Shown: positions 4,975 to 42,206 of the stretch, piece by piece
Position numbering within the stretch: the first letter of the stretch is position 1
Layout: each line of letters begins with the position of its first letter
Assembly (NCBI GenBank): GCA_000002445.1
Contig: CP000067.1
Coordinates: 1,312,001 to 1,376,000 of the forward strand
From: Trypanosoma brucei
Taxonomy: Eukaryota
Reading direction: 5' to 3'
Length of the DNA: 64,000 bases
The notes under the pieces: generated by a model
Database searches by the model: none
Seen by the model: only the letters and a program-made list of their open reading frames with translations
Told to the model about the DNA's origin: nothing
Made by a program: the position numbers and the translations under genes

Positions 4975-5439
4975 TTACAGTGTCTTCTCCACCTCCCCTC
5001 CCTTGCTTTCACTAGCGGCAAGCGAAACTCCCGTGGTTCGGGGAATATATGCCGAATGCCCGTACACCACATCTGCGTGACTTGTTGCCTGTTCTAAAGG
5101 ATTGTTTGGTATTTCACTCCGAGGGGGTTCCTCCTGCTGCAGCTGAGCCGCTGTAGTCATCTCATGGTGACGCGCTATGGGAATACCTGGCAGAATTATT
5201 GCCTCCGGAGGCGGTGGGACCACAGTTGTTGGTTGGGCTACCGGAATATTAATGTAATTGCCTTCATTCCATGGAGGAGCGGGATGCAGCGGCTGATGCG
5301 GAGACAAGCCATCATTTCCTTCCTGCTGCTCCCCATCCTGTAAAAGCCGTCGTGGGCGAAACATCAATAAAACGCGTATGATGAGGAACAGAAAGACAAA
5401 TGTAAATACCAATAACAACGTGAAGTTCGTTTCCGACAT
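4975..5439 (-). CDS. Hypothetical small membrane protein. N-terminal TM helix, then a Pro-rich tail.
   Basis: 154-aa minus-strand ORF. The hydrophobic stretch LLLVFTFVFLFLIIRVLLMF is followed by a Pro/Gln-rich segment. Orientation matches the neighbouring genes. Confidence 0.3.
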   Translation of the reverse strand: MSETNFTLLLVFTFVFLFLIIRVLLMFRPRRLLQDGEQQEGNDGLSPHQPLHPAPPWNEGNYINIPVAQPTTVVPPPPEAIILPGIPIARHHEMTTAAQLQQEEPPRSEIPNNPLEQATSHADVVYGHSAYIPRTTGVSLAASESKGGEVEKTL

Positions 5440-7220
5440 TAGCGTTGGGATATGTGCGTGTCTGGAAGGTGAACCACTGGCGTGGGGAAAACGAAGTTAT
5501 AATAAACAATTAGTGGCGAGTCGCGACGATAATAAGGAACGCGTCTTTGTACCGAATTGAGCGTGGTGTGCGTAACTACAAATCCGCGCACCGCTACATA
5601 CAACTACCAAATGAAGACAAACGAAAAAGGAGGGTATAAAACCATAAAGGTGAAAGGGGCCCACGCATGACGGTCACGTATTTTAGACAACTTAATCTCT
5701 AGTAAATCTCTCGTGTGGAAGATGATCAAAAGGAAAAAAAAGTCACAAAGTTAAATTGTGAGAGTCCTGATGGCGTTGCTGAGAACGAGGCCTAAGTGAG
5801 GTTTGCTTTCCCTGCAACCTCAATCCCCCTTCCCTTGTTGCCTTCGCCATATCGCCCTTTTTCTTGGGGAGGGGAGGGGGGCGGAAGGTGCGTGCCCGCA
5901 GCAATTACACTTGAGATCCCTCTCACATCATCGCATGTACGTCACCTCTCTTTTGCCCCTTCAAGGCCACAATACAAGATCACTATTCAACGAATAAGCC
6001 CTCAAAATTAAAAAGGAAAGGGTACAAAAGCATCAAAAAACACAGGTATCGGGATGAATTAGGCAAGTACGTGTACCTCACCTTGTAACTTTTTTATCCT
6101 GCCAAATTTCTCCTCTCTTCGGCGTGGTTGTGGGATTCATTACCTGCAGCCGTGTGTTTTGAAGATATTATGTTTTATCCCCTTCCCTCCCCCACTTTAT
6201 AAAATTAAACGACTGAATCCTACGCAGCCATGGGGGCACTTCCTCATCGCCACACCTCCTTCTCCTCCTGGTACATCCCTTCTTGTTCATATGCAAACTC
6301 ATTTGTTTCTTTTTTAATTATAAATCGAAAAAGATGTCCAATGTCACAAGTTCACAGGGTAATTACCCAAGAGAAAGAAAAAGGGGGAGGGAAAGGGGGA
6401 ATATGTTGGGCGACCGGCACGAAAAAGAAAAAAAATGAAATAAGAAAATGCCAAAGTGAGGAAAAAATGACAACGAAGACAAACTAATCTCGCCTTCCGT
6501 CGTGCAACCCACACGTCCTCCTTTTTCCGAACGAAAAAAATAAAAAATTACAATTATCAGCTGTGCGGTTGCTCCGCAGACGGGGCAGTTGGTTGTTCGG
6601 AGTAACCTCCTAACTTAAAAGAAATAACCATAATAATAATAATTACACGAACCGCTTTGCGACAATAATGCCGTCTTCTGTTCACAACCCATCTCATTCT
6701 TTTTTAGTGATCAACTGAAAATACAATCAAACGCAGAAACCCGATAGCAATAATAATGCTGAAGTAAGATTAACAATTGAGTTTCAACTTAAAATAATAG
6801 TAACAGCACCGCATCCACAAATAACAAAAAAGGATCCAGGAACTTCCCAAGCTACAGTAAAACAAATGTTTAAAAAAACGTAAGCAAACAGAAGCACACA
6901 ATTGCACTTACCCGCTCAGAATCGAAACGACACAAGAAAAAGCAAATCAGGGAACCCTTCATTACGAAACATTTGAATATATAATTGGACCCTGCCATTC
7001 TTCAAAGAACAAAAGAATATATATATATATATCACACCACACTGACAAACCACAACAAATCAACTGACCGAGGCAACAAAATCTACAACAAAGGACAACA
7101 AAAAATGAAAATAAAGCGATGAATGGCAAGCAAAAAATAAAAATAAAATAAGAAGAACCAACGCGGCAATCTACAAAAAAAAAAAATGAAAAAGTACCGT
7201 TTGCCAAGCGTGGGGAATTA

Positions 7221-8699
7221 TTACCAGCCCACAGCCACTCCGTATATAGTGGCTCCAGTGCCAAATACAGACAAGGCAACACCAGCAAATAAAACTGCGT
7301 ATGTTGCAATGTAGTGTAGCCACCCAACGGTACTCAGGGACCAGTTACCACCATACATCATGAATAAGGAGGGAAGGATGAATCCAAGAAATCCACCACA
7401 CACAGAGCCAACGAAACCAAACACTGTATTAATGTTCGGAATAAATAGGCCACAAAGCAGCATAATTATGGAAATGGTTCCAATAATAGTGCAATGCTTA
7501 AAAAATGAAAGCTTCTCCGTATCCAAGCCGATAATGCCGCACAACCCATTTCGGCATGTCATTGCAAGAAGAGCGTAAGATGCGAATAGTTTTACGAGCA
7601 GGCCAACAAATCCCACCAAAATTGCCGGCTCCTTCACGGGGTCATACATCAATAACACGGAGCCTGCCACATCACGCCCAAAGTCAAGGTAACCGAAGAA
7701 TGCTGTCATGACACACAGGACAAGACATATACCCATGGCAATAGCAGAGTATGCAGTAAACCTGTGCGCACTGGGCTTTGCCATTCCGAAATATATTTCA
7801 AAAACAGAGATATGACACAAAAATGCAAACGTAAAGACACCTGGGCCTTCCACTGCCCGGTTGCTGGTGCCGAAGAGGTGAATGCCCTCATCACCTGGCG
7901 CTCCAGTAACATGTACGTTCTTAATGTTTTCCGGCAGCCCGTTCATACATGAATGCACCACAATAACTACCATAAGGTAAAATACGAAGAAAACAGAAAT
8001 CGTCGAGACATACCTCAAGGAATTCACCTCTCGTGGAATGGTGAGTGGTAGCATAAAACATAGCCACATGATGAAAGTCAGAAGGCGATTACCCCACTTC
8101 TCCTTAAGGAAGTTTGGCGCATCTGTACCCTTAAGTATTGTGCTAACAATATCGCCTGTCGCTATTATCTGCGCTACGGCTGCCCCAAATGCGTTAACCA
8201 CACGTAATACCCCCGTAAAGTACAAACAAGGCTGCCCAAGCAGCGCACGCGCCATACCCTCGTAGGATCTGAATCTATGCCGCTCCATTTGTGCACCAAG
8301 ACAATATAATGAGTATACGCATAGGAAATATATGATGATAGGGTACACAAATGTCATGACCAGTCCAGTGCTGTTGGCGGCCGCGGGCAACCCGAGGATA
8401 CCAGCTCCGATACATATGGAGGCAAGGCTGAAGGCGGTCGAAACTAGCCCGCCCGGAGGGATCATTGAAGTGAAACACTTCATGGATGACTGTTCCCCTT
8501 CTCCCTCATTAGCGGGAAGAGCATTCTTGCCCTTAAGCCCTTCATCTTCTCCACTTATCACTTCGCAGGAGCCGAAAGGAGATGTGACATCTGCCTTGTT
8601 TATCTGTTCCCTGTCTGTTGTGGGGACCACTGCGGACGCCATCCAACAACAATGATAACAGAGTGTTTGCCTTGCTTGCGCACTTACGTGCATACGCAA
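7221..8699 (-). CDS. Amino acid transporter, AAAP family, type A, copy 1. An alternative start, MASAVVPTT, sits at 8642.
   Basis: 492-aa ORF with about 11 hydrophobic helices. Carries the AAAP-type N-terminal motif PPGG.VSTAFSLASICIGAGILGLPAAANSTGLV. About 99% identical to 11210..12688. Confidence 0.85.
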   Translation of the reverse strand: MRMHVSAQARQTLCYHCCWMASAVVPTTDREQINKADVTSPFGSCEVISGEDEGLKGKNALPANEGEGEQSSMKCFTSMIPPGGLVSTAFSLASICIGAGILGLPAAANSTGLVMTFVYPIIIYFLCVYSLYCLGAQMERHRFRSYEGMARALLGQPCLYFTGVLRVVNAFGAAVAQIIATGDIVSTILKGTDAPNFLKEKWGNRLLTFIMWLCFMLPLTIPREVNSLRYVSTISVFFVFYLMVVIVVHSCMNGLPENIKNVHVTGAPGDEGIHLFGTSNRAVEGPGVFTFAFLCHISVFEIYFGMAKPSAHRFTAYSAIAMGICLVLCVMTAFFGYLDFGRDVAGSVLLMYDPVKEPAILVGFVGLLVKLFASYALLAMTCRNGLCGIIGLDTEKLSFFKHCTIIGTISIIMLLCGLFIPNINTVFGFVGSVCGGFLGFILPSLFMMYGGNWSLSTVGWLHYIATYAVLFAGVALSVFGTGATIYGVAVGW

Positions 8700-8735
8700 A
8701 AGAAAAAGGGAGCAAACAGCGTAATGGAGAGTAAT
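8690..8735 (-). promoter_or_regulatory. Putative poly-pyrimidine tract and AG trans-splice acceptor region upstream of type-A AAT genes. The same sequence recurs at about 12680 and 16670.
   Basis: The plus strand is purine-rich here (gcaaaagaaaaagggagcaaacagcg), so the minus strand is CT-rich. It sits immediately 5' of each A-type ORF and is conserved in all three units. Confidence 0.4.
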
Positions 8736-9320
8736 TGTTTAGGGGATGATCATCCATGCGGTTGTGAATAACCGAAGATGATGGATATGCAGTGGTTATA
8801 GTCAGTTCAGTGAGGCAAAAAAAAAAAGGCGTTGAAACCATCTTTTTACACGGTGAATATTGCCAAATGTACTCCTTATGTGTTAAGCTCGGAACACGTC
8901 TATGTGTAAATGTATATGGAAAAAACGAGGTGAAGGGGACATGTTTACTGATGTAGATACACAAACCTCACGAAACATAAGAGCTGCGCGAAGGGACGGA
9001 CGAACAAAATACGGTTACCGAAGCCGCCGCAGCGACAGCAGGGTACCTAAGATATTAAATCGGGATAATAAGTTATGATAAAAGCAATAACACATAAAGA
9101 ATACGTAAGCCGATACAAAGCAAATCGTTTCACAGTGAACAGGAGGGAATGGATTCGCTCACCCACTTCAGTTAAAACGCTACTCGCTCAGTAGTTGAGT
9201 AAACCAAATCAAAAAAGGAAGGACAAGGTAAACAAAACAGATATTTAACAGTGCCAACAACGTTGTCACGACCTTCTTTTTAAATCATTCACTCGGGCTG
9301 ACCCTTATCATCCCTTGCTT

Positions 9321-10709
9321 TTATATGTTAATAGCTCCCCAGATGGAAGCCCCCGTGCCAAACACAATTGCAATGACACCAGTGATGAGTACCGTATACG
9401 TCGCGATATAGTGAAAGGGCCCAACTTTCTGCCATGTAAATCCACCGGCATACAATAACAACAGAGCAGGGAAAATGAATCCAAGAAGTCCACCAGAGAT
9501 CGAACCAGCGAGGCCAAGTACTGTATTAATGTTTGGAATAAATAGGCCACAAAGCAGCATAATTACGGAAAGGGTTACGACAGCAACACAGTGCTTCCAG
9601 AACATCACCTTCTCCGCATCCCAACCAATAATGCTGTACAGCGCGTTACGGCATGCCATTCCGAGCAGCGCGTAAGATGCGAATAGTTTTACGAGCAGGC
9701 CGATGAATCCCACCATAATTGCCGGCTCCTTCACGGGGTCATACATCAATAACACGGAGCCTGTAACATCACGCCCAAAGTCAAGGTAACCGAAGAATGC
9801 TGTCAAAACGTACATGGTGAAGCAGACAGCCATTGCAATGGTGGATGCCATTACAAACTTACCCACCGACCTGTTTGTCATTCCTACATAGACCTCATAC
9901 GCCGTAATTTGTGAGACGTAGGCGAAAATGAACACCCCAAGTCCTTCGATGGCCTTGTTCCCACTGTTAAAAAGCACAATTGCAGCCACATCATTCCTGC
10001 CCACGCTGACGTTCTTGATGTTTTCCGGCAACCCGTTCATACATGAATGCACCACAATAACGATCACAAGGTAGACAATGAAGCTAACAGCAAAGGTCGA
10101 GACGTACCTCAAGGAATTCACCTCTCGTGGAATGGCGAGTGGTAGCATAAAACATAGCCACATGATGAAAGTCAGAAGGCGATTACCCCACTTCTCCTTA
10201 AGGAAGTCTGGCGCATCTGTACCCTTAAGTATTGCGCTGAGGATATCACCCACGGATATTATGTACGCCACACAACCGCTGAAGCCATGAAAGGCACGGG
10301 TTGCGGCCACAAGGTAGGATCCCTTGGCACCAAACAATACTTTTGCCACACCCTCAAAGTCGTGTGTTTTTGTTTTGTCTGCAGCGACACCGAGGGCATA
10401 TATGGAGAATATAGTCATAACAGTAATTATAATGAGGTATACAATAGCCATAACGAGTCCGCTACTGTTGGCAGCGGAGGGTAGACCGACGATACCAGCT
10501 CCAACGGTTGATGATGCGATGTTGAAAGCACTTGCGGCAATGCCTCCGGGTGGGATGGCGGTGGCCACAAATGTGCTCATCCGTGCAAGGAAGCCGGTTC
10601 CCTCCCGCTGCTCTTGTGACTTGGGGTCTACAGCCGCGTCGCAGCATCCGATTGGTTCGTTCCTGACTTCCATGGCGGTGGGAACCTCTCGGGAGCAGGA
10701 GTCAGTCAC
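9321..10709 (-). CDS. Amino acid transporter, AAAP family, type B, copy 1.
   Basis: 462-aa polytopic ORF. Paralogous to type A, with shared blocks (GTDAP.FLKEKWGNRLLTFIMWLCFMLPL.IPREVNSLRYVST, LLMYDPVKEPAI.VGF.GLLVKLFASYALL). Identical at the protein level to 13309..14697. Confidence 0.85.
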   Translation of the reverse strand: MTDSCSREVPTAMEVRNEPIGCCDAAVDPKSQEQREGTGFLARMSTFVATAIPPGGIAASAFNIASSTVGAGIVGLPSAANSSGLVMAIVYLIIITVMTIFSIYALGVAADKTKTHDFEGVAKVLFGAKGSYLVAATRAFHGFSGCVAYIISVGDILSAILKGTDAPDFLKEKWGNRLLTFIMWLCFMLPLAIPREVNSLRYVSTFAVSFIVYLVIVIVVHSCMNGLPENIKNVSVGRNDVAAIVLFNSGNKAIEGLGVFIFAYVSQITAYEVYVGMTNRSVGKFVMASTIAMAVCFTMYVLTAFFGYLDFGRDVTGSVLLMYDPVKEPAIMVGFIGLLVKLFASYALLGMACRNALYSIIGWDAEKVMFWKHCVAVVTLSVIMLLCGLFIPNINTVLGLAGSISGGLLGFIFPALLLLYAGGFTWQKVGPFHYIATYTVLITGVIAIVFGTGASIWGAINI

Positions 10710-10774
10710 AATCGAGTCTGCGCCTTCGTTGCTCGTATTCTCTTTGTACTGGTATACGTGTGTGTGTGTTTTGG

Positions 10775-10835
10775 TGTGCAGTCAAAAAAATGTAGAAGAG
10801 AGTATAGGAGAAGGGAAAAGCACATTTTGTGTTAT
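10775..10835 (-). promoter_or_regulatory. Putative poly-pyrimidine tract and splice-acceptor region upstream of type-B AAT genes. It recurs at about 14765 and 18650.
   Basis: The plus strand reads aaaaaaatgtagaagagagtataggagaagggaaaagc, giving a pyrimidine-rich minus strand. Conserved in all three units. Confidence 0.4.
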
Positions 10836-11209
10836 TTCCATATTGGTTCCGGAATGTGCATCGGCATGGGCATGGGAGCGACGTGCACAGAACGTTTAAC
10901 ACTAATCCAACAAGATTGAAAACACATGTTATACCGCCTCTCCCCCATTTTTACGGAAAAATATTTCGTCCATGTTATACGTAAGAATAATGTACCCGCT
11001 ACAGAAGGAATTGCTGCTGGTTAGCACCGTCCCTTCAAAGGGGAAATAGCTGCAGCGCCTTCCACGCTCAATTAAGCACATAACATATTTACCAGAGTTT
11101 TTAAGTTATTCCGTATATTATTTGCTTGTGAAGCGCTTTTTCTCTCTAAAGTTGTGGCTTGTTACAACATTTTGCTTCGGAAGTACCGTTTGCCAAGCGT
11201 GGGGCATTA

Positions 11210-12688
11210 TTACCAGCCCACAGCCACTCCGTATATAGTGGCTCCAGTGCCAAATACAGACAAGGCAACACCAGCAAATAAAACTGCGTATGTTGCAATG
11301 TAGTGTAGCCACCCAACGGTACTCAGGGACCAGTTACCACCATACATCATGAATAAGGAGGGAAGGATGAATGCAAGAAATCCACCACACACAGAGCCAA
11401 CGAAACCAAGTACTGTATTAATGTTCGGAATAAATAGGCCACAAAGCAGCATAATTATGGAAATGGTTCCAATAATAGTGCAATGCTTAAAAAATGAAAG
11501 CTTCTCCGTATCCAAGCCGATAATGCCGCACAACCCATTTCGGCATGTCATTGCAAGAAGAGCGTAAGATGCGAATAGTTTTACGAGCAGGCCAACAAAT
11601 CCCACCAAAATTGCCGGCTCCTTCACGGGGTCATACATCAATAACACGGAGCCTGCCACATCACGCCCAAAGTCAAGGTAACCGAAGAATGCTGTCATGA
11701 CACACAGGACAAGACATATACCCATGGCAATAGCAGAGTATGCAGTAAACCTGTGCGCACTGGGCTTTGCCATTCCGAAATATATTTCAAAAACAGAGAT
11801 ATGACACAAAAATGCAAACGTAAAGACACCTGGGCCTTCCACTGCCCGGTTGCTGGTGCCGAAGAGGTGAATGCCCTCATCACCTGGCGCTCCAGTAACA
11901 TGTACGTTCTTAATGTTTTCCGGCAGCCCGTTCATACATGAATGCACCACAATAACTACCATAAGGTAAAATACGAAGAAAACAGAAATCGTCGAGACAT
12001 ACCTCAAGGAATTCACCTCTCGTGGAATGGTGAGTGGTAGCATAAAACATAGCCACATGATGAAAGTCAGAAGGCGATTACCCCACTTCTCCTTAAGGAA
12101 GTTTGGCGCATCTGTACCCTTAAGTATTGTGCTAACAATATCGCCTGTCGCTATTATCTGCGCTACGGCTGCCCCAAATGCCTCAACAACACGTAATACC
12201 CCTATAAAGTACAAACAAGGCTGCCCAAGCAGCGCACGCGCCATACCCTCGTAGGATCTGAATCCATGCCGCTCCATTTGTGCACCAAGACAATATAATG
12301 AGTATACGCATAGGAAATATATGATGATAGGGTACACAAATGCCATGACCAGTCCAGTGCTGTTGGCGGCCGCGGGCAACCCGAGGATACCAGCTCCGAT
12401 ACATATGGAGGCAAGGCTGAAGGCGGTCGAAACTAGCCCGCCCGGAGGGATCATTGAAGTGAAACACTTCATGGATGACTGTTCCCCTTCTCCCTCATTA
12501 GCGGGAAGAGCATTCTTGCCCTTAAGCCCTTCATCATCTCCACTTATCACTTCGCAGGAGCCGAAAGGAGATGTGACATCTGCCTTGTTTATCTGTTCCC
12601 TGTCTGTTGTGGGGACCACTGCGGACGCCATCCAACAATAATGATAACAGAGTGTTTGCCTTGCTTGCGCACTTACGTGCATACGCAA
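11210..12688 (-). CDS. Amino acid transporter, AAAP family, type A, copy 2.
   Basis: 492 aa, with only a few substitutions relative to copy 1. Offset from copy 1 is 3989 bp. Confidence 0.85.
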   Translation of the reverse strand: MRMHVSAQARQTLCYHYCWMASAVVPTTDREQINKADVTSPFGSCEVISGDDEGLKGKNALPANEGEGEQSSMKCFTSMIPPGGLVSTAFSLASICIGAGILGLPAAANSTGLVMAFVYPIIIYFLCVYSLYCLGAQMERHGFRSYEGMARALLGQPCLYFIGVLRVVEAFGAAVAQIIATGDIVSTILKGTDAPNFLKEKWGNRLLTFIMWLCFMLPLTIPREVNSLRYVSTISVFFVFYLMVVIVVHSCMNGLPENIKNVHVTGAPGDEGIHLFGTSNRAVEGPGVFTFAFLCHISVFEIYFGMAKPSAHRFTAYSAIAMGICLVLCVMTAFFGYLDFGRDVAGSVLLMYDPVKEPAILVGFVGLLVKLFASYALLAMTCRNGLCGIIGLDTEKLSFFKHCTIIGTISIIMLLCGLFIPNINTVLGFVGSVCGGFLAFILPSLFMMYGGNWSLSTVGWLHYIATYAVLFAGVALSVFGTGATIYGVAVGW

Positions 12689-13308
12689 AAGAAAAAGGGA
12701 GCAAACAGCGTAATGGAGAGTAATTGTTTAGGGGATGATCATCCATGCGGTTGTGAATAACCGAAGATGATGGATATGCAGTGGTTATAGTCAGTTCAGT
12801 GAGGCAAAAAAAAAAGGCGTTGAAACCATCTTTTTACACGGTGAATATTGCCAAATGTACTCCTTATGTGTTAAGCTCGGAACACGTCTATGTGTAAATG
12901 TATATGGAAAAAACGAGGTGAAGGGGACATGTTTACTGATGTAGATACACAAACCTCACGAAACATAAGAGCTGCGCAAAGGGACGGACGAACAAAATAC
13001 GGTTACCGAAGCCGCCGCAGCGACAGCAGGGTACCTAAGATATTAAATCGGGATAATAAGTTATGATAAAAGCAATAACACATAAAGAATACGTAAGCCG
13101 ATACAAAGCAAATCGTTTCACAGTGAACAGGAGGGAATGGATTCGCTCACCCACTTCAGTTAAAACGCTACTCGCTCAGTAGTTGAGTAAACCAAATCAA
13201 AAAAGGAAGGACAAGGTAAACAAAACAGATATTTAACAGTGCCAACAACGTTGTCACGACCTTCTTTTTAAATCATTCACTCGGGCTGACCCTTATCATC
13301 CCTTGCTT

Positions 13309-14697
13309 TTATATGTTAATAGCTCCCCAGATGGAAGCCCCCGTGCCAAACACAATTGCAATGACACCAGTGATGAGTACCGTATACGTCGCGATATAGT
13401 GAAAGGGCCCAACTTTCTGCCATGTAAATCCACCGGCATACAATAACAACAGAGCAGGGAAAATGAATCCAAGAAGTCCACCAGAGATCGAACCAGCGAG
13501 GCCAAGTACTGTATTAATGTTTGGAATAAATAGGCCACAAAGCAGCATAATTACGGAAAGGGTTACGACAGCAACACAGTGCTTCCAGAACATCACCTTC
13601 TCCGCATCCCAACCAATAATGCTGTACAGCGCGTTACGGCATGCCATTCCGAGCAGCGCGTAAGATGCGAATAGTTTTACGAGCAGGCCGATGAATCCCA
13701 CCATAATTGCCGGCTCCTTCACGGGGTCATACATCAATAACACGGAGCCTGTAACATCACGCCCAAAGTCAAGGTAACCGAAGAATGCTGTCAAAACGTA
13801 CATGGTGAAGCAGACAGCCATTGCAATGGTGGATGCCATTACAAACTTACCCACCGACCTGTTTGTCATTCCTACATAGACCTCATACGCCGTAATTTGT
13901 GAGACGTAGGCGAAAATGAACACCCCAAGTCCTTCGATGGCCTTGTTCCCACTGTTAAAAAGCACAATTGCAGCCACATCATTCCTGCCCACGCTGACGT
14001 TCTTGATGTTTTCCGGCAACCCGTTCATACATGAATGCACCACAATAACGATCACAAGGTAGACAATGAAGCTAACAGCAAAGGTCGAGACGTACCTCAA
14101 GGAATTCACCTCTCGTGGAATGGCGAGTGGTAGCATAAAACATAGCCACATGATGAAAGTCAGAAGGCGATTACCCCACTTCTCCTTAAGGAAGTCTGGC
14201 GCATCTGTACCCTTAAGTATTGCGCTGAGGATATCACCCACGGATATTATGTACGCCACACAACCGCTGAAGCCATGAAAGGCACGGGTTGCGGCCACAA
14301 GGTAGGATCCCTTGGCACCAAACAATACTTTTGCCACACCCTCAAAGTCGTGTGTTTTTGTTTTGTCTGCAGCGACACCGAGGGCATATATGGAGAATAT
14401 AGTCATAACAGTAATTATAATGAGGTATACAATAGCCATAACGAGTCCGCTACTGTTGGCAGCGGAGGGTAGACCGACGATACCAGCTCCAACGGTTGAT
14501 GATGCGATGTTGAAAGCACTTGCGGCAATGCCTCCGGGTGGGATGGCGGTGGCCACAAATGTGCTCATCCGTGCAAGGAAGCCGGTTCCCTCCCGCTGCT
14601 CTTGTGACTTGGGGTCTACAGCCGCGTCGCAGCATCCGATTGGTTCGTTCCTGACTTCCATGGCGGTGGGAACCTCTCGGGAGCAGGAGTCAGTCAC
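13309..14697 (-). CDS. Amino acid transporter, AAAP family, type B, copy 2.
   Basis: 462 aa, identical translation to 9321..10709. Offset is 3988 bp. Confidence 0.85.
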   Translation of the reverse strand: MTDSCSREVPTAMEVRNEPIGCCDAAVDPKSQEQREGTGFLARMSTFVATAIPPGGIAASAFNIASSTVGAGIVGLPSAANSSGLVMAIVYLIIITVMTIFSIYALGVAADKTKTHDFEGVAKVLFGAKGSYLVAATRAFHGFSGCVAYIISVGDILSAILKGTDAPDFLKEKWGNRLLTFIMWLCFMLPLAIPREVNSLRYVSTFAVSFIVYLVIVIVVHSCMNGLPENIKNVSVGRNDVAAIVLFNSGNKAIEGLGVFIFAYVSQITAYEVYVGMTNRSVGKFVMASTIAMAVCFTMYVLTAFFGYLDFGRDVTGSVLLMYDPVKEPAIMVGFIGLLVKLFASYALLGMACRNALYSIIGWDAEKVMFWKHCVAVVTLSVIMLLCGLFIPNINTVLGLAGSISGGLLGFIFPALLLLYAGGFTWQKVGPFHYIATYTVLITGVIAIVFGTGASIWGAINI

Positions 14698-15197
14698 AAT
14701 CGAGTCTGCGCCTTCGTTGCTCGTATTCTCTTTGTACTGGTATACGTGTGTGTGTGTTTTGGTGTGCAGTCAAAAAAATGTAGAAGAGAGTATAGGAGAA
14801 GGGAAAAGCACATTTTGTGTTATTTCCATATTGGTTCCGGAATGTGCATCGGCATGGGCATGGGAGCGACGTGCACAGAACGTTTAACACTAATCCAACA
14901 AGATTGAAAACACATGTTATACCGCCTCTCCCCCATTTTTACGGAAAAATATTTCGTCCATGTTATACGTAAGAATAATGTACCCGCTACAGAAGGAATT
15001 GCTGCTGGTTAGCACCGTCCCTTCAAAGGGGGAATTATTACCGTATAATTCACGTTCGAGGAAGGAAATAACATATTTACCAGAGTTTTTAAGTTATTCC
15101 GTATATTATTTGCTTGTGAAGCGCTTTTTTACTCTAAAGTTGTGGCTTGTTACAACATTTTGCTTCGGAAGTACCGTTTGCCAAGCGTGGGGCATTA

Positions 15198-16676
15198 TTA
15201 CCAACCCACAGCCACTCCGTATATAGTGGCTCCAGTGCCAAATACAGACAAGGCAACACCAGCAAATAAAACTGCGTATGTTGCAATGTAGTGTAGCCAC
15301 CCAACGGTACTCAGGGACCAGTTACCACCATACATCATGAATAAGGAGGGAAGGATGAATCCAAGAAATCCACCACACACAGAGCCAACGAAACCAAACA
15401 CTGTATTAATGTTCGGAATAAATAGGCCACAAAGCAGCATAATTACGGAAAGGATTCCAATAATAGTGCAATGCTTAAAAAATGAAAGCTTCTCCGCATC
15501 CCACTCAACGATGCCGCACAACCCATTTCGGCAGGACATTGCAAGAAGAGCGTAAGATGCGAATAGTTTCGTAAGGACGCCAACAAATCCCACCAAAATT
15601 GCCGGCTCCTTCACGGGGTCATACATCAATAACACGGAGCCCGTAACTTTCCCCCCAAAGTCAAGGTAACCGAAGAATGCTGTCATGACACACAGGACAA
15701 GACATATACCCATGGCAATAGCAGAGTATGCAGTAAACCTGTGCGCACTTGGCTTTGCCATTCCGAAATATATTTCGAAGGCGTAACATTGACAAACAAA
15801 TGCAAACGTAAAGACACCTGGGCCTTCCACTGCCCGGTTGCTAGTGCCGAAGAGGTGAATGCCCTCATCACCTGGCGCTCCAGTAACATGTACGTTCTTA
15901 ATGTTTTCCGGCAGCCCGTTCATACATGAATGCACCACAATAACGCCCATAAGGTAAAATATAAAGACAACAGCAAAGGTCGAGACATACCTCAAGGAAT
16001 TCACCTCTCGTGGAATGGTGAGTGGTAGCATAAAACATAGCCACATGATGAAAGTCAGAAGGCGATTACCCCACTTCTCCTTAAGGAAGTTTGGCGCATC
16101 TGTACCCTTAAGTATTGTGCTAACAATATCGCCAACGGAGATTATGTACGCCACACAGGCCCCAAATGCGTTAACCACACGTAATACTCCAGTGAGGTGC
16201 GCACCGTAGGGCCCAAGCAGCGCACGCGCCATACCCTCGTAGGATCTGAATCCATGCCGCTCCATTTGTGCACCAAGACAATATAATGAGTATACGCATA
16301 GGAAATATATGATGATAGGGTACACAAATGTCATGACCAGTCCAGTGCTGTTGGCGGCCGCGGGCAACCCGAGGATACCAGCTCCGATACATATGGAGGC
16401 AAGGCTGAAGGCGGTCGAAACTAGCCCGCCCGGAGGGATCATTGAAGTGAAACACTTCATGGATGACTGTTCCCCTTCTCCCTCATTAGCGGGAAGAGCA
16501 TTCTTGCCCTTAAGCCCTTCATCTTCTCCACCTATCACTTCGCAGGAGCCGAAAGGAGATGTGACATCTGCCTTGTTTATCTGTTCCCTGTCTGTTGTGG
16601 GGACCACTGCGGACGCCATCCAACAACAATGATAACAGAGTGTTTGCCTTGCTTGCGCACTTACGTGCATACGCAA
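15198..16676 (-). CDS. Amino acid transporter, AAAP family, type A, copy 3. A mosaic of A-type and B-type sequence blocks.
   Basis: 492 aa with A-type N- and C-termini. Internal patches match type B, not type A: GACVAYIISVGDI, VSTFAVVFIFYLMG, FGGKVTGS, VEWDAEKLSFF. Confidence 0.8.
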   Translation of the reverse strand: MRMHVSAQARQTLCYHCCWMASAVVPTTDREQINKADVTSPFGSCEVIGGEDEGLKGKNALPANEGEGEQSSMKCFTSMIPPGGLVSTAFSLASICIGAGILGLPAAANSTGLVMTFVYPIIIYFLCVYSLYCLGAQMERHGFRSYEGMARALLGPYGAHLTGVLRVVNAFGACVAYIISVGDIVSTILKGTDAPNFLKEKWGNRLLTFIMWLCFMLPLTIPREVNSLRYVSTFAVVFIFYLMGVIVVHSCMNGLPENIKNVHVTGAPGDEGIHLFGTSNRAVEGPGVFTFAFVCQCYAFEIYFGMAKPSAHRFTAYSAIAMGICLVLCVMTAFFGYLDFGGKVTGSVLLMYDPVKEPAILVGFVGVLTKLFASYALLAMSCRNGLCGIVEWDAEKLSFFKHCTIIGILSVIMLLCGLFIPNINTVFGFVGSVCGGFLGFILPSLFMMYGGNWSLSTVGWLHYIATYAVLFAGVALSVFGTGATIYGVAVGW

Positions 16677-17190
16677 AAGAAAAAGGGAGCAAACAGCGTA
16701 ATGGAGAGTAATTGTTTAGGGGATGATCATCCATGCGGTTGTGAATAACCGAAGATGATGGATATGCAGTGGTGACAGAAAATGAAGAGAAGGCGGGCGG
16801 ACATCCTTCTTAGGTGGTAGGATTGTCTGACTGCTGAATTACGCTAGGATTGTTGCGCACGTTGTGAAGAACACAACAACTGTACTTTATTGTTAATAGG
16901 AAAATTTAATGCTGCCATCTTAGGATAAATACAACACGAACAGCATCTAGTAATGTGCTGGTGGGGCGATAACATCACCGTTAGTGGATGAAGGAGTGGT
17001 TTCTTCTACGTGCTTATATAAAATAGGAAAACCATTACACAAAATTAAATAAGAAGTTTACGATTAGAACACACCCATATTATCCACCTACATCAATAAT
17101 TGACGACGCAGGAAATCCCAACAAACAGGACCGTGAAAGAGTCAATGACAACTAAAGGACATCTGTGACTAAGGCATTTTTAATCAATTG

Positions 17191-18582
17191 TCAATTTCCC
17201 ACCACTACGCCATGTATAGTGGCCCCCGTGCCAAACACAATGGCCAGCACACCACTAAGCAACAACGTATACGTCGCGATATAGTGAAAGGGCCCAACTT
17301 TCTGCCATGTAAATCCACCGGCATACAATAACAACAGAGCAGGGAAAATGAATCCAAGAAGTCCACCAGAGATCGAACCAGCGAGGCCAAGTACTGTATT
17401 AATGTTTGGAATAAATAGGCCACAAAGCAGCATAATTACGGAAAGGGTTACGACAGCAACACAGTGCTTCCAGAAGATCACCTTCTCCGCATCCCAACCA
17501 ATAATGCTGTACAGCGCGTTACGGCATGCCATTCCGAGCAGCGCGTAAGATGCGAATAGTTTTACGAGCAGGCCGATGAATCCCACCATAATTGCCGGCT
17601 CCTTCACGGGGTCATACATCAATAACACGGAGCCTGTAACATCACGCCCAAAGTCAAGGTAACCGAAGAATGCAGTCATGGCATACAGCACGGAGCACGT
17701 TGCCATCGCGATGCTCGTGGCGACGATAAACTTGCGTACAGACCTGTCTTCCATGTCCATGTAAACCTCATACGCCGTAATTTGTGAGACGTAGGCGAAA
17801 ATGAACACCCCAAGTCCTTCGATGGCCTTGTTCCCACTGTTAAAAAGCACAATTGCAGCCACATCATTCCTGCCCACGCTGACGTTCTTGATGTTTTCCG
17901 GCAACCCGTTCATACATGAATGCACCACAATAACGATCACAAGGTAGACAATGAAGCTAACAGCAAAGGTCGAGACGTACCTCAAGGAATTCACCTCTCG
18001 TGGAATGGCGAGTGGTAGCATAAAACATAGCCACATGATGAAAGTCAGAAGGCGATTACCCCACTTCTCCTTAAGGAAGTCTGGCGCATCTGTACCCTTA
18101 AGTATTGCGCTGAGGATATCACCCACGGATATTATGTACGCCACACAGGCGCTGAAGCCATGAAAGGCACGGGTTGCGGCCACAAGGTAGGATCCCTTGG
18201 CACCAAACAATACTTTTGCCACACCCTCAAAGTCGTGTGTTTTTGTTTTGTCTGCAGCGACACCGAGGGCATATATGGAGAATATAGTCATAACAGTAAT
18301 TATAATGAGGTATACAATAGCCATAACGAGTCCGCTACTGTTGGCAGCGGAGGGTAGACCGACGATACCAGCTCCAACGGTTGATGATGCGATGTTGAAA
18401 GCACTTGCGGCAATGCCTCCGGGTGGGATGGCGGTGGCCACAAATGTGCTCATCCGTGCAAGGAAGCCGGTTCCCTCCCGCTGCTCTTGTGACTTGGGGT
18501 CTACAGCCGCGTCGCAGCATCCGATTGGTTCGTTCCTGACTTCCATGGCGGTGGGAACCTCTCGGGAGCAGGAGTCAGTCAC
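17191..18582 (-). CDS. Amino acid transporter, AAAP family, type B, copy 3. Distal copy, divergent in its 3' third.
   Basis: 463 aa. The N-terminal two thirds are identical to the other B copies. The C-terminal segment (YMDMEDRSVRKFIVATSIAMATCSVLYAM ... TLLLSGVLAIVFGTGATIHGVVVGN) is divergent. Confidence 0.8.
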   Translation of the reverse strand: MTDSCSREVPTAMEVRNEPIGCCDAAVDPKSQEQREGTGFLARMSTFVATAIPPGGIAASAFNIASSTVGAGIVGLPSAANSSGLVMAIVYLIIITVMTIFSIYALGVAADKTKTHDFEGVAKVLFGAKGSYLVAATRAFHGFSACVAYIISVGDILSAILKGTDAPDFLKEKWGNRLLTFIMWLCFMLPLAIPREVNSLRYVSTFAVSFIVYLVIVIVVHSCMNGLPENIKNVSVGRNDVAAIVLFNSGNKAIEGLGVFIFAYVSQITAYEVYMDMEDRSVRKFIVATSIAMATCSVLYAMTAFFGYLDFGRDVTGSVLLMYDPVKEPAIMVGFIGLLVKLFASYALLGMACRNALYSIIGWDAEKVIFWKHCVAVVTLSVIMLLCGLFIPNINTVLGLAGSISGGLLGFIFPALLLLYAGGFTWQKVGPFHYIATYTLLLSGVLAIVFGTGATIHGVVVGN

Positions 18583-18978
18583 AATCGAGTCTGCGCCTTC
18601 GTTGCTCGTATTCTCTTTGTACTGGTATACGTGTGTGTGTGTTTTGGTGTGCAGTCAAAAAAATGTAGAAGAGAGTATAGGAGAAGGGAAAAGCACATTT
18701 TGTGTTATTTCCATATAGTACCCCTTTTCTCTTCGCCAAAAACATTTTGCATTATCAATGTTTATATGCTATATGTTTTATTATTATTTTGTTTTATTTT
18801 TTGGTAAAGCCATTTTGCTGGTGTTTTCCATAATTTTTTAGACGGAATTTACTCTCAGTTCAGCGAACTTCCCTTCATATATTTCTTTTCGCACTATGAG
18901 GACACATATTTTGGTTTTCATGGTTTGCGTTGCTTCAATGCGCTGATAGAGTGTTAAAGAGGCTTGACAGTCGTGGAA

Positions 18979-20659: not shown

Positions 20660-23242
20660 CTAGGGCAACTGTTGCTGCTCTCGGTTCTGCATTTCATTCA
20701 CGACCACTTGTTGTTGTGAGCCCTCCATTTCTTCTTCTACGTCGAGTGCTTGTCCCTCCGCTCGTCGTTGCTGTCGGCGCCGCAACCAGTCATGAATAAC
20801 TGTTGACAACGACGTCCCGAATGTGGCATAGCCGAGGAACAACACTGCGCCGGTACAGGGCGACGCCTCCCACGACCACACGATGCTGCTCGTGCGGTAG
20901 ATGAACAGCTTCACCAAAAAACCAAGTGCTAACGCTTGCAACACCCCACCCACGAAGATCAACACTATTATGCACGTGTTCCTTCGGGTCCAAAACGGGG
21001 GAAGAGTTTGGAAGGCCATCAAATAAGCCAGCGTCTCTGGATCCGTGTGAAAATTGGCATACACTGCAGAAAACGCAAATGCCGCCAGCATTGTCAACAT
21101 AAATTGCAGGAATACGGTGAGGATAACTCCATCGAACTCAAACATTGTACCATAGGAAACGGCATGCCACGGCGCGCGGCAGGTCATCTCACCAAACGTT
21201 ACGCGCTGACCCGCGGTAACAGCTACAAAGGCGAATACGCTGCTGAGTACCAGCAGAAGACCGGAGCCGACTCCTTTTAAATTCTTCACTACTAGAGCGC
21301 GGCGGCTTATGGGGACGCGAAAGGGCTTTTTGCATATTTCACAGCGGTCTACGTTGCGGATGTTGCGTTTGGTGCTTTCGATGCGCCACTTGTCAAGGCA
21401 AGAGGCATGAATCCACCGAACAGAGCCTATACACTCACACGCAGATATTACTGGCTCCTCGGATTCGTCGTCGCGGCAAATGCGGCAGATGCGCTCCCCT
21501 TCATCCTCCTCATCCCCAACCACTTTCGTCTGCTCGCTACAACTCACTGCGGGTACTGAAGGTGCGGCATTCCTCTGCTCAACCTCAGTTTCTGAATAAA
21601 TGCTATAGTTGTTGTTGTTACTGCAATTACTACCATTGTTCACTGCATTTCGTGATAGAGAGGCGGCGGCGGCTGTGGAGCCTGCATATTCGTCTCTCGC
21701 ATCACCAAACGGCTTGGGCGCCTTCTTCGGACTCGCTATGAGCGGTCGCTTTAAATTACTGCGCGTGTTGTCTTCGTTGTCGTCTAGATCCATGTCAACC
21801 ATGTCCTCCAATATGACGACATCATCCGCTCGTAGTCCCCCCTTCGGTGCATGTGGTGGTATAAATTCCATCCGAACGGCTGTTGTCCCACTCGAGGCCT
21901 CCCTAAACTCTTGCTCGCTGGGATTTCCACGCCCTCCTTCCTCTTCCAGTGGACTTCGACTCCCGAGGTGTTGTGACTGAGGGTACAAATTTGTGTCAAC
22001 ATCACCGTTATTACCATCGTTCATGTCCATACCCGTCGGTGTGAAGGTTGTTTGCTCCATGATGCGCCGATGTTGCTCTTCAAGCTGGCGCTGACGCTGT
22101 TCCTCCTGACGTCGTGCGCGTGTTCCCTGCACTAACTGGTAGAGATATGCGAAGAAGCGTACCAGTGTATTCCGTAATGCCACTGCCGGATAAACCAACC
22201 ACAATACCACATCAATATCCGCAAGGTAATCCTTCAACACATGCGCGTACATAAATGTGATTGGTGCTGTGATTAACAGAATGAAAAGCGGAACACCCAG
22301 GGCGAAGACGTTTTGCATGAGGCGTTCCTTCTCCTTAGGGGTTTGTGTGATATACACCTTCACCTGGCAATCTTTGCCCGCGCGGTAATAACTTCCACTC
22401 ACCCCCAGTTGGGCGTTGAGCAAGACCACGTACGGTTGGGGTTCTGGTTCCGGTTCCACCCGCAGCATAACCATTGGTAGTAACTCACAGAAATTACTGG
22501 TGTCGAGCATCGTGACGATAGCATTCCAGAAAGCCTTCCACCCCCCCTTTTGTTCATGCTCTTCTTCTGTACCGCTTCCATCCCCTGGGTTGCCACCGCC
22601 GTTTCCCTCCTTTCCATTGGTTGCAGCGTGCGCCACGCGCTCGGTGAGTGCCGTCAAGTTCACATCTTTCTTAGCACGTATCTCCACACTAACGAAGTAG
22701 CCTATACAATTGTCTGAAGGAATGTTGGCGTCGTAACGGTGACTCAGCAACTGCGTCACAACTTTGACCTCAGACCGCGTACTGCTCTCGAATTCCAGAT
22801 AGCTCATAGTGTTGGGAGACACATGAACCACATACCCGCCCTGTGGCTGGGACGACCCGTTCATACTCATTTGGCTTCTCACTTCATTGCCTTGAAAGTT
22901 TCCTCTGCCTTCGTTGTTCGTTTTCGCAACGTCTGAAACGGAAGCTGTCTTCACCGTGAGGAGGTCAAGGATCGGGCGGTAATTCCCCGCCTTCTCGTGG
23001 CTGGTTCCGGTTTCACCGGTACCGCCACCTCCTTCATTACGAGCCGCTGCCTTGTGTGTGCTGACGGCGAGAGGTGTCACGTGTGATAACACACCAAAGA
23101 GCCGCTTCCACCCCTTCGGCTTCTGAAACTTCCCTTTTACCGTGTGCTGGTGTTTTCGTTCCTGACCTCCGGCATTGGATAAAAGGGAGACGATTAGAAC
23201 GGAGCATATGCCGAGTAAACACATGGAGCGGTTCGGAATCAT
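20660..23242 (-). CDS. RING-CH (C4HC3, MARCH-like) zinc-finger polytopic membrane protein, putative E3 ligase. ORF track gives 20660..23290; likely start is MIPNRSMCLLG at 23242.
   Basis: Motif CRICRDDESEEPVISACECIGSVRWIHASCLDKW ... CEICKKPF (C-x2-C ... C-x-C ... H-x2-C ... C-x2-C), followed by several hydrophobic helices. N-terminal signal-like segment LLGICSVLIVSLLSNAG. Confidence 0.7.
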   Translation of the reverse strand: MIPNRSMCLLGICSVLIVSLLSNAGGQERKHQHTVKGKFQKPKGWKRLFGVLSHVTPLAVSTHKAAARNEGGGGTGETGTSHEKAGNYRPILDLLTVKTASVSDVAKTNNEGRGNFQGNEVRSQMSMNGSSQPQGGYVVHVSPNTMSYLEFESSTRSEVKVVTQLLSHRYDANIPSDNCIGYFVSVEIRAKKDVNLTALTERVAHAATNGKEGNGGGNPGDGSGTEEEHEQKGGWKAFWNAIVTMLDTSNFCELLPMVMLRVEPEPEPQPYVVLLNAQLGVSGSYYRAGKDCQVKVYITQTPKEKERLMQNVFALGVPLFILLITAPITFMYAHVLKDYLADIDVVLWLVYPAVALRNTLVRFFAYLYQLVQGTRARRQEEQRQRQLEEQHRRIMEQTTFTPTGMDMNDGNNGDVDTNLYPQSQHLGSRSPLEEEGGRGNPSEQEFREASSGTTAVRMEFIPPHAPKGGLRADDVVILEDMVDMDLDDNEDNTRSNLKRPLIASPKKAPKPFGDARDEYAGSTAAAASLSRNAVNNGSNCSNNNNYSIYSETEVEQRNAAPSVPAVSCSEQTKVVGDEEDEGERICRICRDDESEEPVISACECIGSVRWIHASCLDKWRIESTKRNIRNVDRCEICKKPFRVPISRRALVVKNLKGVGSGLLLVLSSVFAFVAVTAGQRVTFGEMTCRAPWHAVSYGTMFEFDGVILTVFLQFMLTMLAAFAFSAVYANFHTDPETLAYLMAFQTLPPFWTRRNTCIIVLIFVGGVLQALALGFLVKLFIYRTSSIVWSWEASPCTGAVLFLGYATFGTSLSTVIHDWLRRRQQRRAEGQALDVEEEMEGSQQQVVVNEMQNREQQQLP

Positions 23243-23367
23243 CTTTTTTTTCCTTTTTGATGTAACCTCCAACACTTTACGTGTCCTCAATATTGAAAAC
23301 AGTAATAGTAGTTGAACACGTCCTATGACACGCTCTTTTCACCAGTCTTTTTTCACGTTCTCTGTTT

Positions 23368-33313: not shown

Positions 33314-33384
33314 AACTACTTGATCACTGCTTGTTTTTTTTCCCCTCTTCAACTTTATTTTTGTGCTTAGTGTGAGTATGGGTC

Positions 33385-33480
33385 TTGTGCCTCTGGTGCT
33401 CCCTGCGTGTGGTGAATAAACACACAAACAAACACGAAACAGAAATAGAAACAGAGAAGAAGGCAGGAAAAAGTCCAAGA
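33385..33480 (-). promoter_or_regulatory. Putative poly-pyrimidine tract for trans-splicing of the enoyl-CoA hydratase mRNA.
   Basis: The plus strand reads aaacacgaaacagaaatagaaacagagaagaaggcaggaaaaag, which is purine-rich, so the minus strand is CT-rich. It lies 70-170 nt 5' of the proposed ATG. Confidence 0.4.
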
Positions 33481-42153: not shown

Positions 42154-42171
42154 AAATAAATAAATAAATAA

Positions 42172-42204
<33 letters not shown>
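42154..42204. repeat. (AAAT)6 followed by (TA)14 microsatellite.
   Basis: aaataaataaataaataaataaatatatatatatatatatatatatatata. Confidence 0.9.

Positions 42205-42206
<2 letters not shown>

What the first reader, a model, noticed from the sequence alone, without database searches (positions are those of the whole stretch)
7195..18720. Triplicated 3.99-kb unit carrying alternating paralogous amino-acid transporter genes
Six AAAP-family transporter ORFs alternate as A-B-A-B-A-B with an almost exact 3988-3989 bp period, and the intergenic sequence is repeated too. An array this homogeneous is prone to unequal crossover and copy-number variation. Short-read assemblies tend to collapse such arrays, so the true copy number here may differ. 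Trypanosome transporter arrays of this kind matter for nutrient uptake and for uptake of amino-acid-like drugs.
Basis: partly seen in the sequence, partly recalled or inferred. Interest (0 to 1): 0.5.

Follow-up and report, generated by a model that had tools for sequence, protein, structure and literature searches.

The report
Known trypanosome amino-acid transporter gene array
This is the already published and annotated AAT4 array of six alternating amino-acid transporter genes on chromosome 4 of Trypanosoma brucei TREU927, so it is real but ordinary; the only additions here are a corrected repeat anatomy and a difference in copy number between genome assemblies.

Summary
The six ORFs are real. 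They lie on the minus strand and belong to the AAAP family (Pfam Aa_trans E 1e-46 to 1e-50; AlphaFold model matches AUX1/LAX3/SLC38A9).

All six are residue-for-residue identical to T. b. brucei TREU927 proteins AAZ11072-AAZ11077 (Tb927.4.4820-4870). This is the "AAT4Tb" locus. Jackson (2007, PMC1810246) already described it as a tandem array of six copies of two alternating sequence types with gene conversion.

The repeat is not three equal units.
- Units 1 and 2 (7192-11180 and 11181-15168) differ at 34 substitutions and 1 indel, and share a 2,053-bp identical stretch.
- Unit 3 is older. A3 and B3 carry clustered divergent "islands".
- 417 nt of the B3-A3 spacer are unrelated to the other spacers, and the B2-to-B3 period is 3,885 bp.

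The T. b. gambiense DAL972 and T. b. equiperdum assemblies hold only two units between the same flanks. TREU927's third unit fits one unequal crossover in the last ~280 bp of the A homology. This could be real copy-number variation or assembly collapse; I could not tell which.

Substrate specificity is unknown in the literature. Verdict: already known, low interest.

The parts
7221..8642 (-). A1 = Tb927.4.4820 (AATP10). A-type AAAP transporter, downstream ('dn') type. 473-aa model from MASAV; the 490-aa model starts at 8693.
   Evidence: ORF. Pfam Aa_trans E 1.7e-48. Exact match to AAZ11072.1. AATP10 = Tb927.4.4820 according to PMC7294092.
9321..10673 (-). B1 = Tb927.4.4830. B-type AAAP transporter, 450 aa.
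   Evidence: Exact match to AAZ11073.1/AAZ11075.1. 100% nt identity to B2.
11210..12631 (-). A2 = Tb927.4.4840 (AATP7). A-type, dn-like. 12 nt differences from A1.
   Evidence: Exact match to AAZ11074.1. Differences listed.
13309..14661 (-). B2 = Tb927.4.4850. B-type, identical to B1.
15198..16619 (-). A3 = Tb927.4.4860 (AATP8). A-type, upstream ('up') type. 94-95% nt identity to A1/A2, with 68 of the 75 differences from A1 falling in 74 codons.
   Evidence: Exact match to AAZ11076.1 (473 aa) and to clone CAC86549.1 (490 aa). Islands. 99.3-99.4% identical to the first A copy of DAL972 and T. equiperdum.
17191..18546 (-). B3 = Tb927.4.4870. B-type, up type, 451 aa. Divergent islands at CDS nt 783-873 and 1282-1350, the latter covering the C-terminus.
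   Evidence: Exact match to AAZ11077.1. Site table. 98.8-99.2% identical to the first B copy of DAL972 and T. equiperdum.
7192..11180 (-). Repeat unit 1 (A1 + spacer + B1 + spacer), 3,989 bp.
   Evidence: Differs from unit 2 at 34 substitutions and 1 indel. Perfect stretch at 8991-11043.
11181..15168 (-). Repeat unit 2, 3,988 bp.
15169..18716 (-). Unit 3. Older, diverged and incomplete. It ends 170 nt upstream of the B3 ATG.
   Evidence: Collinear with the first unit of DAL972 and T. equiperdum.
16774..17190 (-). Unique part of the B3-A3 spacer, presumed to be the 3'UTR of B3. Unrelated to the B1-A1 and B2-A2 spacers.
   Evidence: About 45-57% identity in the forced alignment. Only the A-proximal 103 nt are shared.
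11044..11079 (-). 36-bp same-length replacement patch (18 of 36 positions) in the A2-B1 spacer. The matching A3-B2 spacer carries the state seen in DAL972 and T. equiperdum.
   Evidence: No donor found.
20660..23290 (-). Upstream flank gene in the direction of transcription. RING-variant domain protein. Conserved flank in other assemblies.
   Evidence: Pfam RINGv. The same neighbour is present in L001 and L002.
4975..5439 (-). Downstream flank ORF of 154 aa. Conserved flank in other assemblies.
   Evidence: A 154-aa gene follows the last A copy in L001, L002 and L003.

Best explanation
The region is the AAT4 locus of Trypanosoma brucei brucei TREU927 chromosome 4 (Tb927.4.4820-4870). It consists of six genes for AAAP-family (LeuT-fold, 11-helix) amino-acid permeases of two paralogous types. 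In the direction of transcription (minus strand) the order is B3-A3-B2-A2-B1-A1, all inside one long same-strand gene cluster.

Shown:
- The identity of the locus, the family and the fold.
- The older state is a two-unit array (B_up-A_up-B_dn-A_dn), whose units differ in spacer sequence and in short divergent islands. This two-unit layout is what DAL972 and T. b. equiperdum show.

Inferred:
- TREU927 gained a third unit by one unequal crossover between A_up and A_dn. The crossover lay between A CDS nt ~1226 and 29 nt past the stop codon. This explains why A2 is dn-type in its coding islands but carries the A_up-type 3' flank, and why B1 and B2 are identical.
- The copies are kept similar by gene conversion. 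Strain-specific SNPs are shared by both B copies within one genome, and two A/B blocks have nearly identical synonymous sites.
- Short islands with old divergence persist (dS 0.755, against 0.014 in the rest of the gene). They lie in TM3, TM5, TM6b, TM7, TM8, TM9 and TM11.
- Functionally, each gene yields its own mRNA by trans-splicing and polyadenylation. Copy number sets dosage, and the distinct 3' flanks of B3 and A1 allow copy-specific post-transcriptional control.
- The proteins import amino acids. The substrate is unknown.
For: Identity:
- All six proteins are exact matches to AAZ11072-77 on the 1,590,432-bp TREU927 contig.
- Gene ids are cross-checked by PMC7294092 and PMC2771046.
[quoted passage not shown] I see that patch in A3.

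Family:
- Pfam Aa_trans matches the full model length.
- The profile hits PAT1/SLC36A1 at E 8e-19 and SLC38A9 at E 2e-9.
- The AF2 model has pLDDT 82.8 and pTM 0.82. It matches LAX3/AUX1/SLC38A9 with TM-scores of 0.72-0.82.

Two-unit ancestor and extra unit:
-.
- The A3-B2 spacer is identical to the DAL972 spacer in the 36-bp patch, while the A2-B1 spacer is derived.
- Homology between the A1 3' flank and the A2/A3 3' flanks ends 29 nt after the stop codon.

Conversion:
- 4-fold sites are identical at 29/31 and 22/27 in the two A/B blocks, against about one third elsewhere.
- Strain-specific sites are shared by both B copies of one genome.
- The upstream ATG is ACG in all three TREU927 B copies.

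Islands.

Polycistronic context: almost every ORF of 200 aa or more is on the minus strand. For trans-splicing and post-transcriptional control, see the abstract of PMC6597758.
Against: - Copy number in the two comparison assemblies may be under-called. DAL972 is a reference-guided whole-genome shotgun assembly (my own knowledge). The T. equiperdum IVM-t1 genome was built from only 7,508 PacBio reads plus MiSeq reads (PMC6395869), and I infer but did not verify that GCA_003543875.1 is that genome.
- Divergence between units 1 and 2 is very uneven: 0 differences in 2,053 bp next to 12 in the 1.47-kb A gene. A single clean duplication event is therefore too simple.
- No donor was found for the islands or for the 36-bp spacer patch.
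- No transport, expression or splice-site data were generated here.
Confidence: 0.9

Rival explanations
1. All T. brucei strains have three or more units. The two-unit state in DAL972 and T. b. equiperdum is assembly collapse of the two near-identical units, so there is no real copy-number variation.
For: - Units 1 and 2 share a 2,053-bp perfect stretch and are about 99.1% identical overall. Such units are easily merged in shotgun or low-coverage assemblies.
- The T. equiperdum IVM-t1 genome used only 7,508 PacBio reads.
- The T. equiperdum downstream A copy is an up/dn mosaic, and its middle B copy has a 1-bp gap. Both could be consensus or polishing artefacts.
Against: - Two independent assemblies of different subspecies give the same clean two-unit layout, with no N gaps.
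- The derived 36-bp patch of the TREU927-only junction spacer is absent from both.
Confidence: 0.3
2. The third unit in TREU927 is an assembly artefact. A1 and A2 would be the two alleles of one gene in this diploid parasite, wrongly laid in tandem.
For: - A1 and A2 differ by only 12 nt, which is allele-like.
- B1/B2 and their surroundings are identical.
- The other assemblies show two units.
Against: - The A2-B1 junction spacer carries a unique 36-bp patch that the A3-B2 spacer lacks. The junction is therefore a distinct sequence, not a copy-paste of reads.
- Jackson 2007 notes that five separately named clones (AATP3, 7-10) all derive from this array. That equals the five distinct sequences present here: A1, A2, A3, B1=B2 and B3.
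- The reference was built from BAC clones, each a single haplotype (my own knowledge).
Confidence: 0.08
3. The differences between upstream and downstream copies arose by point mutation under positive selection, as Emes and Yang 2008 inferred from codon site models. They would not be old relics or imported conversion tracts.
For: - PMC2386149 reports sites with dN/dS > 1 in both AAT4 clades.
- The islands fall in helices that line the substrate path in LeuT-fold carriers, namely TM3, TM6 and TM8.
Against: - Synonymous divergence inside the A islands is 0.755, against 0.014 outside. Island dN (0.304) is below island dS. Selection on new point mutations would not raise dS fifty-fold in 74 codons.
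- A comparable multi-nucleotide patch occurs in non-coding spacer.
- From general knowledge, recombination inflates false positives in site-model tests.
Confidence: 0.15

Closest known systems
AAT4Tb locus, Tb927.4.4820-4870 (Jackson 2007, BMC Evol Biol 7:26, PMC1810246; gene names AATP3, 7-10)
   Same: It is this locus. The proteins are exact matches. It has six copies of two alternating types and a conversion patch at nt 511-536 of the second copy in transcription order.
   Different: Nothing categorical. Details added here:
- The third unit has an unrelated B3-A3 spacer.
- A two-unit layout in DAL972 and T. equiperdum.
- Long A/B blocks with identical synonymous sites.
- Shared strain-specific SNPs. 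Jackson could not test concerted evolution for AAT4.
AAT7 locus on T. brucei chromosome 8 (Tb927.8.7600-7700), including the AAT7-B proline/alanine transporters (PMC8094907)
   Same: It is the paralogous two-type tandem array on the duplicated chromosome block. B is about 72% nt identical to the 467-aa AAT7 genes, and A is about 68% identical to the 546-aa gene. It groups phylogenetically with AAT4.
   Different: - Different chromosome, and 11 copies in TREU927.
- The types are not strictly alternating in the DAL972 stretch I fetched: four 466/467-aa genes followed by one 546-aa gene.
- Substrates are known for AAT7-B but not for AAT4.
Solved AAAP/LeuT-fold carriers: AUX1/LAX3 (9h61, 9lva), SLC38A9 (6c08, 7kgv), PAT1/SLC36A1 (9v3t)
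   Same: Same fold and family. Foldseek TM-scores are 0.72-0.82 and the profile E-value is 8e-19 to PAT1. The model has 11 helices with broken TM1 and TM6.
   Different: Only 15-18% sequence identity. The substrates and coupling ion of the trypanosome proteins are unknown.

Membership tests
AAAP family (Pfam PF01490 Aa_trans; TC 2.A.18) | Full-length match to the family profile above the curated cut-off | tested here: met
   Four copies scanned (A1, B1, A3, B3): 158-173 bits against a cut-off of 25.6, covering profile positions 4-409 of 410. A2 and B2 were not scanned, but are 98% and 100% identical to A1 and B1.
AAAP family (Pfam PF01490 Aa_trans; TC 2.A.18) | LeuT fold with 11 transmembrane helices and unwound TM1 and TM6 | tested here: met
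   The AF2 model (pLDDT 82.8) has helices 66-77/80-92 and 261-274/277-286 broken, for 11 TM helices in total. Best structural matches are LAX3, AUX1 and SLC38A9.
AAAP family (Pfam PF01490 Aa_trans; TC 2.A.18) | Hydrophilic cytosolic N-terminal domain | tested here: inconclusive
   Residues 7-49 have pLDDT below 50 and are non-helical. Published phosphosites T20, S21, S25 and S30 fit the 473-aa A model. Topology was not tested.
AAAP family (Pfam PF01490 Aa_trans; TC 2.A.18) | Amino-acid transport activity | not testable with these tools
   The literature states 'unknown specificities and localization' for AAT4.
T. brucei AAT4 locus (Jackson 2007) | Genomic position: chromosome 4, genes Tb927.4.4820-4870 | tested here: met
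   Exact protein matches to six consecutive TREU927 accessions on the 1,590,432-bp contig. Gene ids tie to names.
T. brucei AAT4 locus (Jackson 2007) | Six tandem copies of two sequence types that alternate | tested here: met
T. brucei AAT4 locus (Jackson 2007) | Partial conversion of copy 4.2 by the other type at nt 511-536 | tested here: met
   At nt 513-536, A3 carries the B-type bases at 11 of the 12 variable sites while A1/A2 differ. This fits if the copies are numbered in the direction of transcription.
Homogeneous head-to-tail tandem array with one constant unit | Constant period and all spacers homologous across all units | tested here: not met
   The B2->B3 period is 3,885 bp, not 3,988. 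417 nt of the B3-A3 spacer are unrelated to the other spacers.

The most novel reading that the evidence does not exclude
The array may encode four functionally distinct permeases (A_up, A_dn, B_up, B_dn). Their differences would be held by selection in short islands within helices that line the substrate path (TM3, TM6b, TM8), while gene conversion erases all other divergence. The third unit would be a genuine TREU927-lineage copy-number gain made by a single unequal crossover in the last ~280 bp of the A homology. If so, the published positive-selection signal at this locus would be mainly a recombination or relic signal, and swapping islands should switch substrate specificity.
Probability: 0.3. 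Interest if true: 0.3.

Novelty: already known. Interest (0 to 1): 0.12.

Why it matters
It matters little as a discovery. The locus has been annotated in the reference genome and described in print since 2007.

The residual value is practical.
- AAT4 is one of the T. brucei transporter loci that still has no assigned substrate.
- The near-identity of units 1 and 2 means RNA-seq, proteomics and RNAi cannot separate Tb927.4.4830 from 4850, and can barely separate 4820 from 4840.
- The unit count differs between reference assemblies, so dosage comparisons across strains need long reads.
- The island-in-a-homogenised-background pattern gives a short list of residues to swap in TM3, TM6b, TM7 and TM8 if someone sets out to find what distinguishes the copies.

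Tried and rejected
- Tandem Repeats Finder found nothing, because the unit exceeds its 500-bp period limit. The direct-repeat finder and my own alignments were used instead.
- Exact-protein look-ups of the TREU927 copies (B2, A2) and of the chromosome 8 paralogue P0002 returned 'not on record'. TREU927 DNA outside the window could therefore not be fetched, and DAL972 loci were used as stand-ins.
- I looked in the DAL972 AAT7 array for donors of the A3/B3 islands. Identity was only 65-76% with no high-identity patches, so ectopic conversion from AAT7 is not supported. AAT2 and AAT10 were not sampled.
- The donor search for the 36-bp spacer patch found none in the window or the fetched loci. It also does not look like an inversion of the ancestral patch (checked by eye only).
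- A single-sequence search against PDB sequences found nothing. The profile search did find matches.
- tRNA and Rfam scans of the window were empty.
- The plus-strand ORFs inside the B genes (10324-10899, 14312-14887, 18197-18718) were rejected as genes. They are antisense to a strongly supported CDS and are repeated only because the DNA is repeated.
- The bacterial promoter/terminator scan was not run, because it is irrelevant to a trypanosome.


Full report
**Observation.**
Between 7221 and 18582 there are six long ORFs, all on the minus strand. They alternate between a 490/473-aa type (A1 7221-8693, A2 11210-12682, A3 15198-16670) and a 450/451-aa type (B1 9321-10673, B2 13309-14661, B3 17191-18546). 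Direct-repeat analysis and a three-way alignment put the ends of the repeated block at 7192 and 18716.

The similarity is far beyond chance. Units 1 and 2 differ at 34 substitutions and one indel in 3,989 bp, and contain a 2,053-bp perfect stretch at 8991-11043.

Two details of the finding do not hold.
- The 3,989/3,988-bp period applies to A1->A2->A3 and to B1->B2, but B2->B3 is 3,885 bp.
- Of the five spacers, the one between B3 and A3 shares only its A-proximal 103 nt with the others. Its remaining 417 nt (16774-17190) are unrelated.

A3 and B3 are also only 94-95% identical to their sister copies. The array is therefore two near-identical units plus an older, diverged and incomplete one.

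**What it is.**
The four copies scanned (A1, B1, A3, B3) match Pfam Aa_trans over the whole model, at 158-173 bits against a cut-off of 25.6. A2 and B2 are 98% and 100% identical to A1 and B1. A 45-sequence profile hits the solved carriers PAT1/SLC36A1 (E 8e-19) and SLC38A9 (E 2e-9).

An AlphaFold model of A1 (pLDDT 82.8, pTM 0.82) has 11 transmembrane helices with broken TM1 and TM6 and a disordered N-terminus. Its best structural matches are LAX3, AUX1 and SLC38A9, with TM-scores up to 0.72-0.82.

An exact-sequence look-up shows that all the proteins are identical to six consecutive T. b. brucei TREU927 entries, AAZ11072-AAZ11077, on the 1,590,432-bp chromosome 4 contig. A3 also equals the independently deposited clone CAC86549.1 (AATP8). 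Papers tie these names to Tb927.4.4820 (AATP10), Tb927.4.4830 and Tb927.4.4860 (amino acid transporter 8).

**Already published.**
Jackson (2007, PMC1810246) lists AAT4 = Tb927.4.4820, n = 6. [quoted passage not shown] It also states that AATP3 and AATP7-10 all derive from this array, and reports a 25-bp conversion patch at nt 511-536 of AAT4.2.

I see that patch. At nt 513-536, A3 carries the B-type bases at 11 of the 12 variable sites, while A1 and A2 differ. Emes and Yang (2008, PMC2386149) reported positive selection in both clades of this locus.

The finding is therefore a correct re-discovery.

**Surroundings.**
Every ORF of 200 aa or more in the window lies on the minus strand, apart from one antisense overlap. 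This is as expected for a trypanosome polycistronic unit, in which mRNAs are cut out by trans-splicing and polyadenylation and control is post-transcriptional (abstract of PMC6597758).

In the direction of transcription the array is preceded by a RING-variant protein gene (20660-23290) and followed by a 154-aa ORF (4975-5439). Further upstream lie calreticulin and the C-terminal part of RPB1.

**Comparison with other assemblies.**
T. b. gambiense DAL972 (FN554967.1, locus L001) and T. b. equiperdum (CM010675.1, L002/L003) have the same flanks. They carry only B-A-B-A, with no N gaps.

Orthology follows position.
- A3 is 99.3-99.4% identical to the first A copy of both assemblies.
- A1 and A2 are 98.2-98.8% identical to the second A copy of DAL972.
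- B3 and B1 behave in the same way.

The two-unit array, with its two different spacers and its islands, therefore predates the split of these subspecies. For scale, flank divergence between TREU927 and DAL972 is 1.2-1.6%.

**Origin of the third unit (inference).**
- A2 has dn-type coding islands but an up-type 3' flank.
- The homology between the A1 3' flank and the A2/A3 3' flanks stops 29 nt after the stop codon.
- No up/dn island lies after CDS nt 1225; only scattered single-site differences follow.

One unequal crossover between A_up and A_dn inside the last ~280 bp of shared sequence gives exactly the observed B3-A3-B2-A2-B1-A1 order and the 3,988-bp unit.

I cannot decide whether the two-unit state elsewhere is real or a collapse. 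The T. equiperdum IVM-t1 genome used only 7,508 PacBio reads (PMC6395869), and I did not verify that GCA_003543875.1 is that assembly.

**How the copies evolve.**
A and B are 66% nt and 59% aa identical overall. In codons 181-260 and 321-380 their four-fold degenerate sites are identical at 29/31 and 22/27, against about one third elsewhere. This points to conversion between the two types rather than protein constraint.

Between upstream and downstream copies of the same type the pattern is reversed. For A1 versus A3, 68 of the 75 differences fall in 74 codons. Island dS is 0.755, against 0.014 in the rest of the gene. These islands are conserved across the three subspecies.

Between the islands, strain-specific variants are shared by both B copies of one genome: B nt 291, 366, 675, 1005-1009 and 1213. 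In addition, the upstream ATG used in the DAL972 gene models (the codon is also ATG in T. equiperdum) is ACG in all three TREU927 B copies. This is concerted evolution, which Jackson could not test for this locus.

The high island dS argues that the published dN/dS signal reflects old or imported sequence rather than recent adaptive point mutation. A similar 36-bp multi-nucleotide replacement sits in non-coding spacer at 11044-11079.

On the model, the A islands fall in TM3, TM5, TM6b, TM7, TM8 and TM9. The B islands fall in TM6b-TM7 and TM11. From general knowledge of LeuT-fold carriers, TM3, TM6 and TM8 help form the substrate site. Functional divergence between copies is therefore plausible but untested.

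**Function.**
No substrate is assigned.
- A 2026 overview of characterised T. brucei AATs lists AAT6, AAT10.1, AAT2.4, AAT5, AAT16, AAT7-B and AAT10.2, but not AAT4 (PMC13524880).
- A 2020 preprint calls the AAT4 members transporters 'with unknown specificities and localization'.
- Phosphosites T20, S21, S25 and S30 reported for Tb927.4.4820/4840/4860 fit the 473-aa MASAV start and not the 490-aa one.
- A polypyrimidine tract lies 5-19 nt upstream of the 490-aa ATG, which points the same way.
- Tb927.4.4860 mRNA was about 2.3-fold higher in bloodstream forms than in procyclic forms (PMC2771046).

**Verdict.**
The region is real and was correctly interpreted in outline, but it is already known. 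The corrected anatomy, the two-versus-three unit difference, the crossover reconstruction and the island/homogenisation pattern are incremental additions. Interest is low.

Noticed in passing
window 10734-10736, 14722-14724, 18607-18609 (minus strand): The upstream in-frame ATG that gives DAL972 its 471/472-aa B gene models (MSNEGADSIV...) is ACG in all three TREU927 B copies. The codon is also ATG in T. equiperdum, whose annotated B model is 451 aa. The TREU927 models start 21 codons later (450/451 aa). The same strain-specific change in every copy is a sign of concerted evolution.
   Followed up: partly
window 8698-8712, 12687-12701, 16675-16689 (minus strand): A polypyrimidine tract (CTCCCTTTTTCTTTT) lies 5-19 nt upstream of the 490-aa ATG of each A gene. 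Together with the published phosphosite numbering, this favours the 473-aa MASAV start. GenBank models for A1 and A2 use 490 aa, while A3 uses 473 aa.
   Followed up: partly
window 11044-11079: A 36-bp stretch of the A2-B1 spacer differs at 18 positions from the otherwise identical A3-B2 spacer, with no length change. The A3-B2 version matches DAL972 and T. equiperdum. No donor sequence was found.
   Followed up: partly
L002 13349-15867 and 15867-17339 (T. b. equiperdum CM010675.1): The middle B copy is unannotated and has a 1-bp gap relative to B1. The downstream A copy is a mosaic: up-type up to about nt 709 and dn-type from about nt 725. This is either real conversion or an artefact of a low-coverage hybrid assembly.
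   Followed up: partly
window 40788-44185: A 3.4-kb gene-free, AT-rich stretch (GC about 0.33) with many homopolymer and short AT/ATAT runs, between the 1445-aa ORF and the 669-aa ORF. It is probably a long untranslated or intergenic region.
   Followed up: no
window 60029-61216 and 61829-63976: A calreticulin gene and the C-terminal part of an RNA polymerase II largest-subunit (RPB1) gene lie at the window end. Other ORFs with Pfam hits:
- CorA-like, 25639-27396
- enoyl-CoA hydratase, 32111-33592
- cation efflux, 49466-50869
- alpha-kinase, 52481-53509
- TerD-domain, 55938-58517
   Followed up: no
window 10324-10899, 14312-14887, 18197-18718 (plus strand): Three ORFs of 173-191 aa lie antisense inside the B genes. 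They recur only because the DNA is repeated, and are very likely not genes.
   Followed up: no
L004 4940-16435 (DAL972 chromosome 8, FN554971.1): The paralogous AAT7 stretch shows four 466/467-aa genes followed by one 546-aa gene, next to a receptor-type adenylate cyclase. The types are not strictly alternating there.
   Followed up: no
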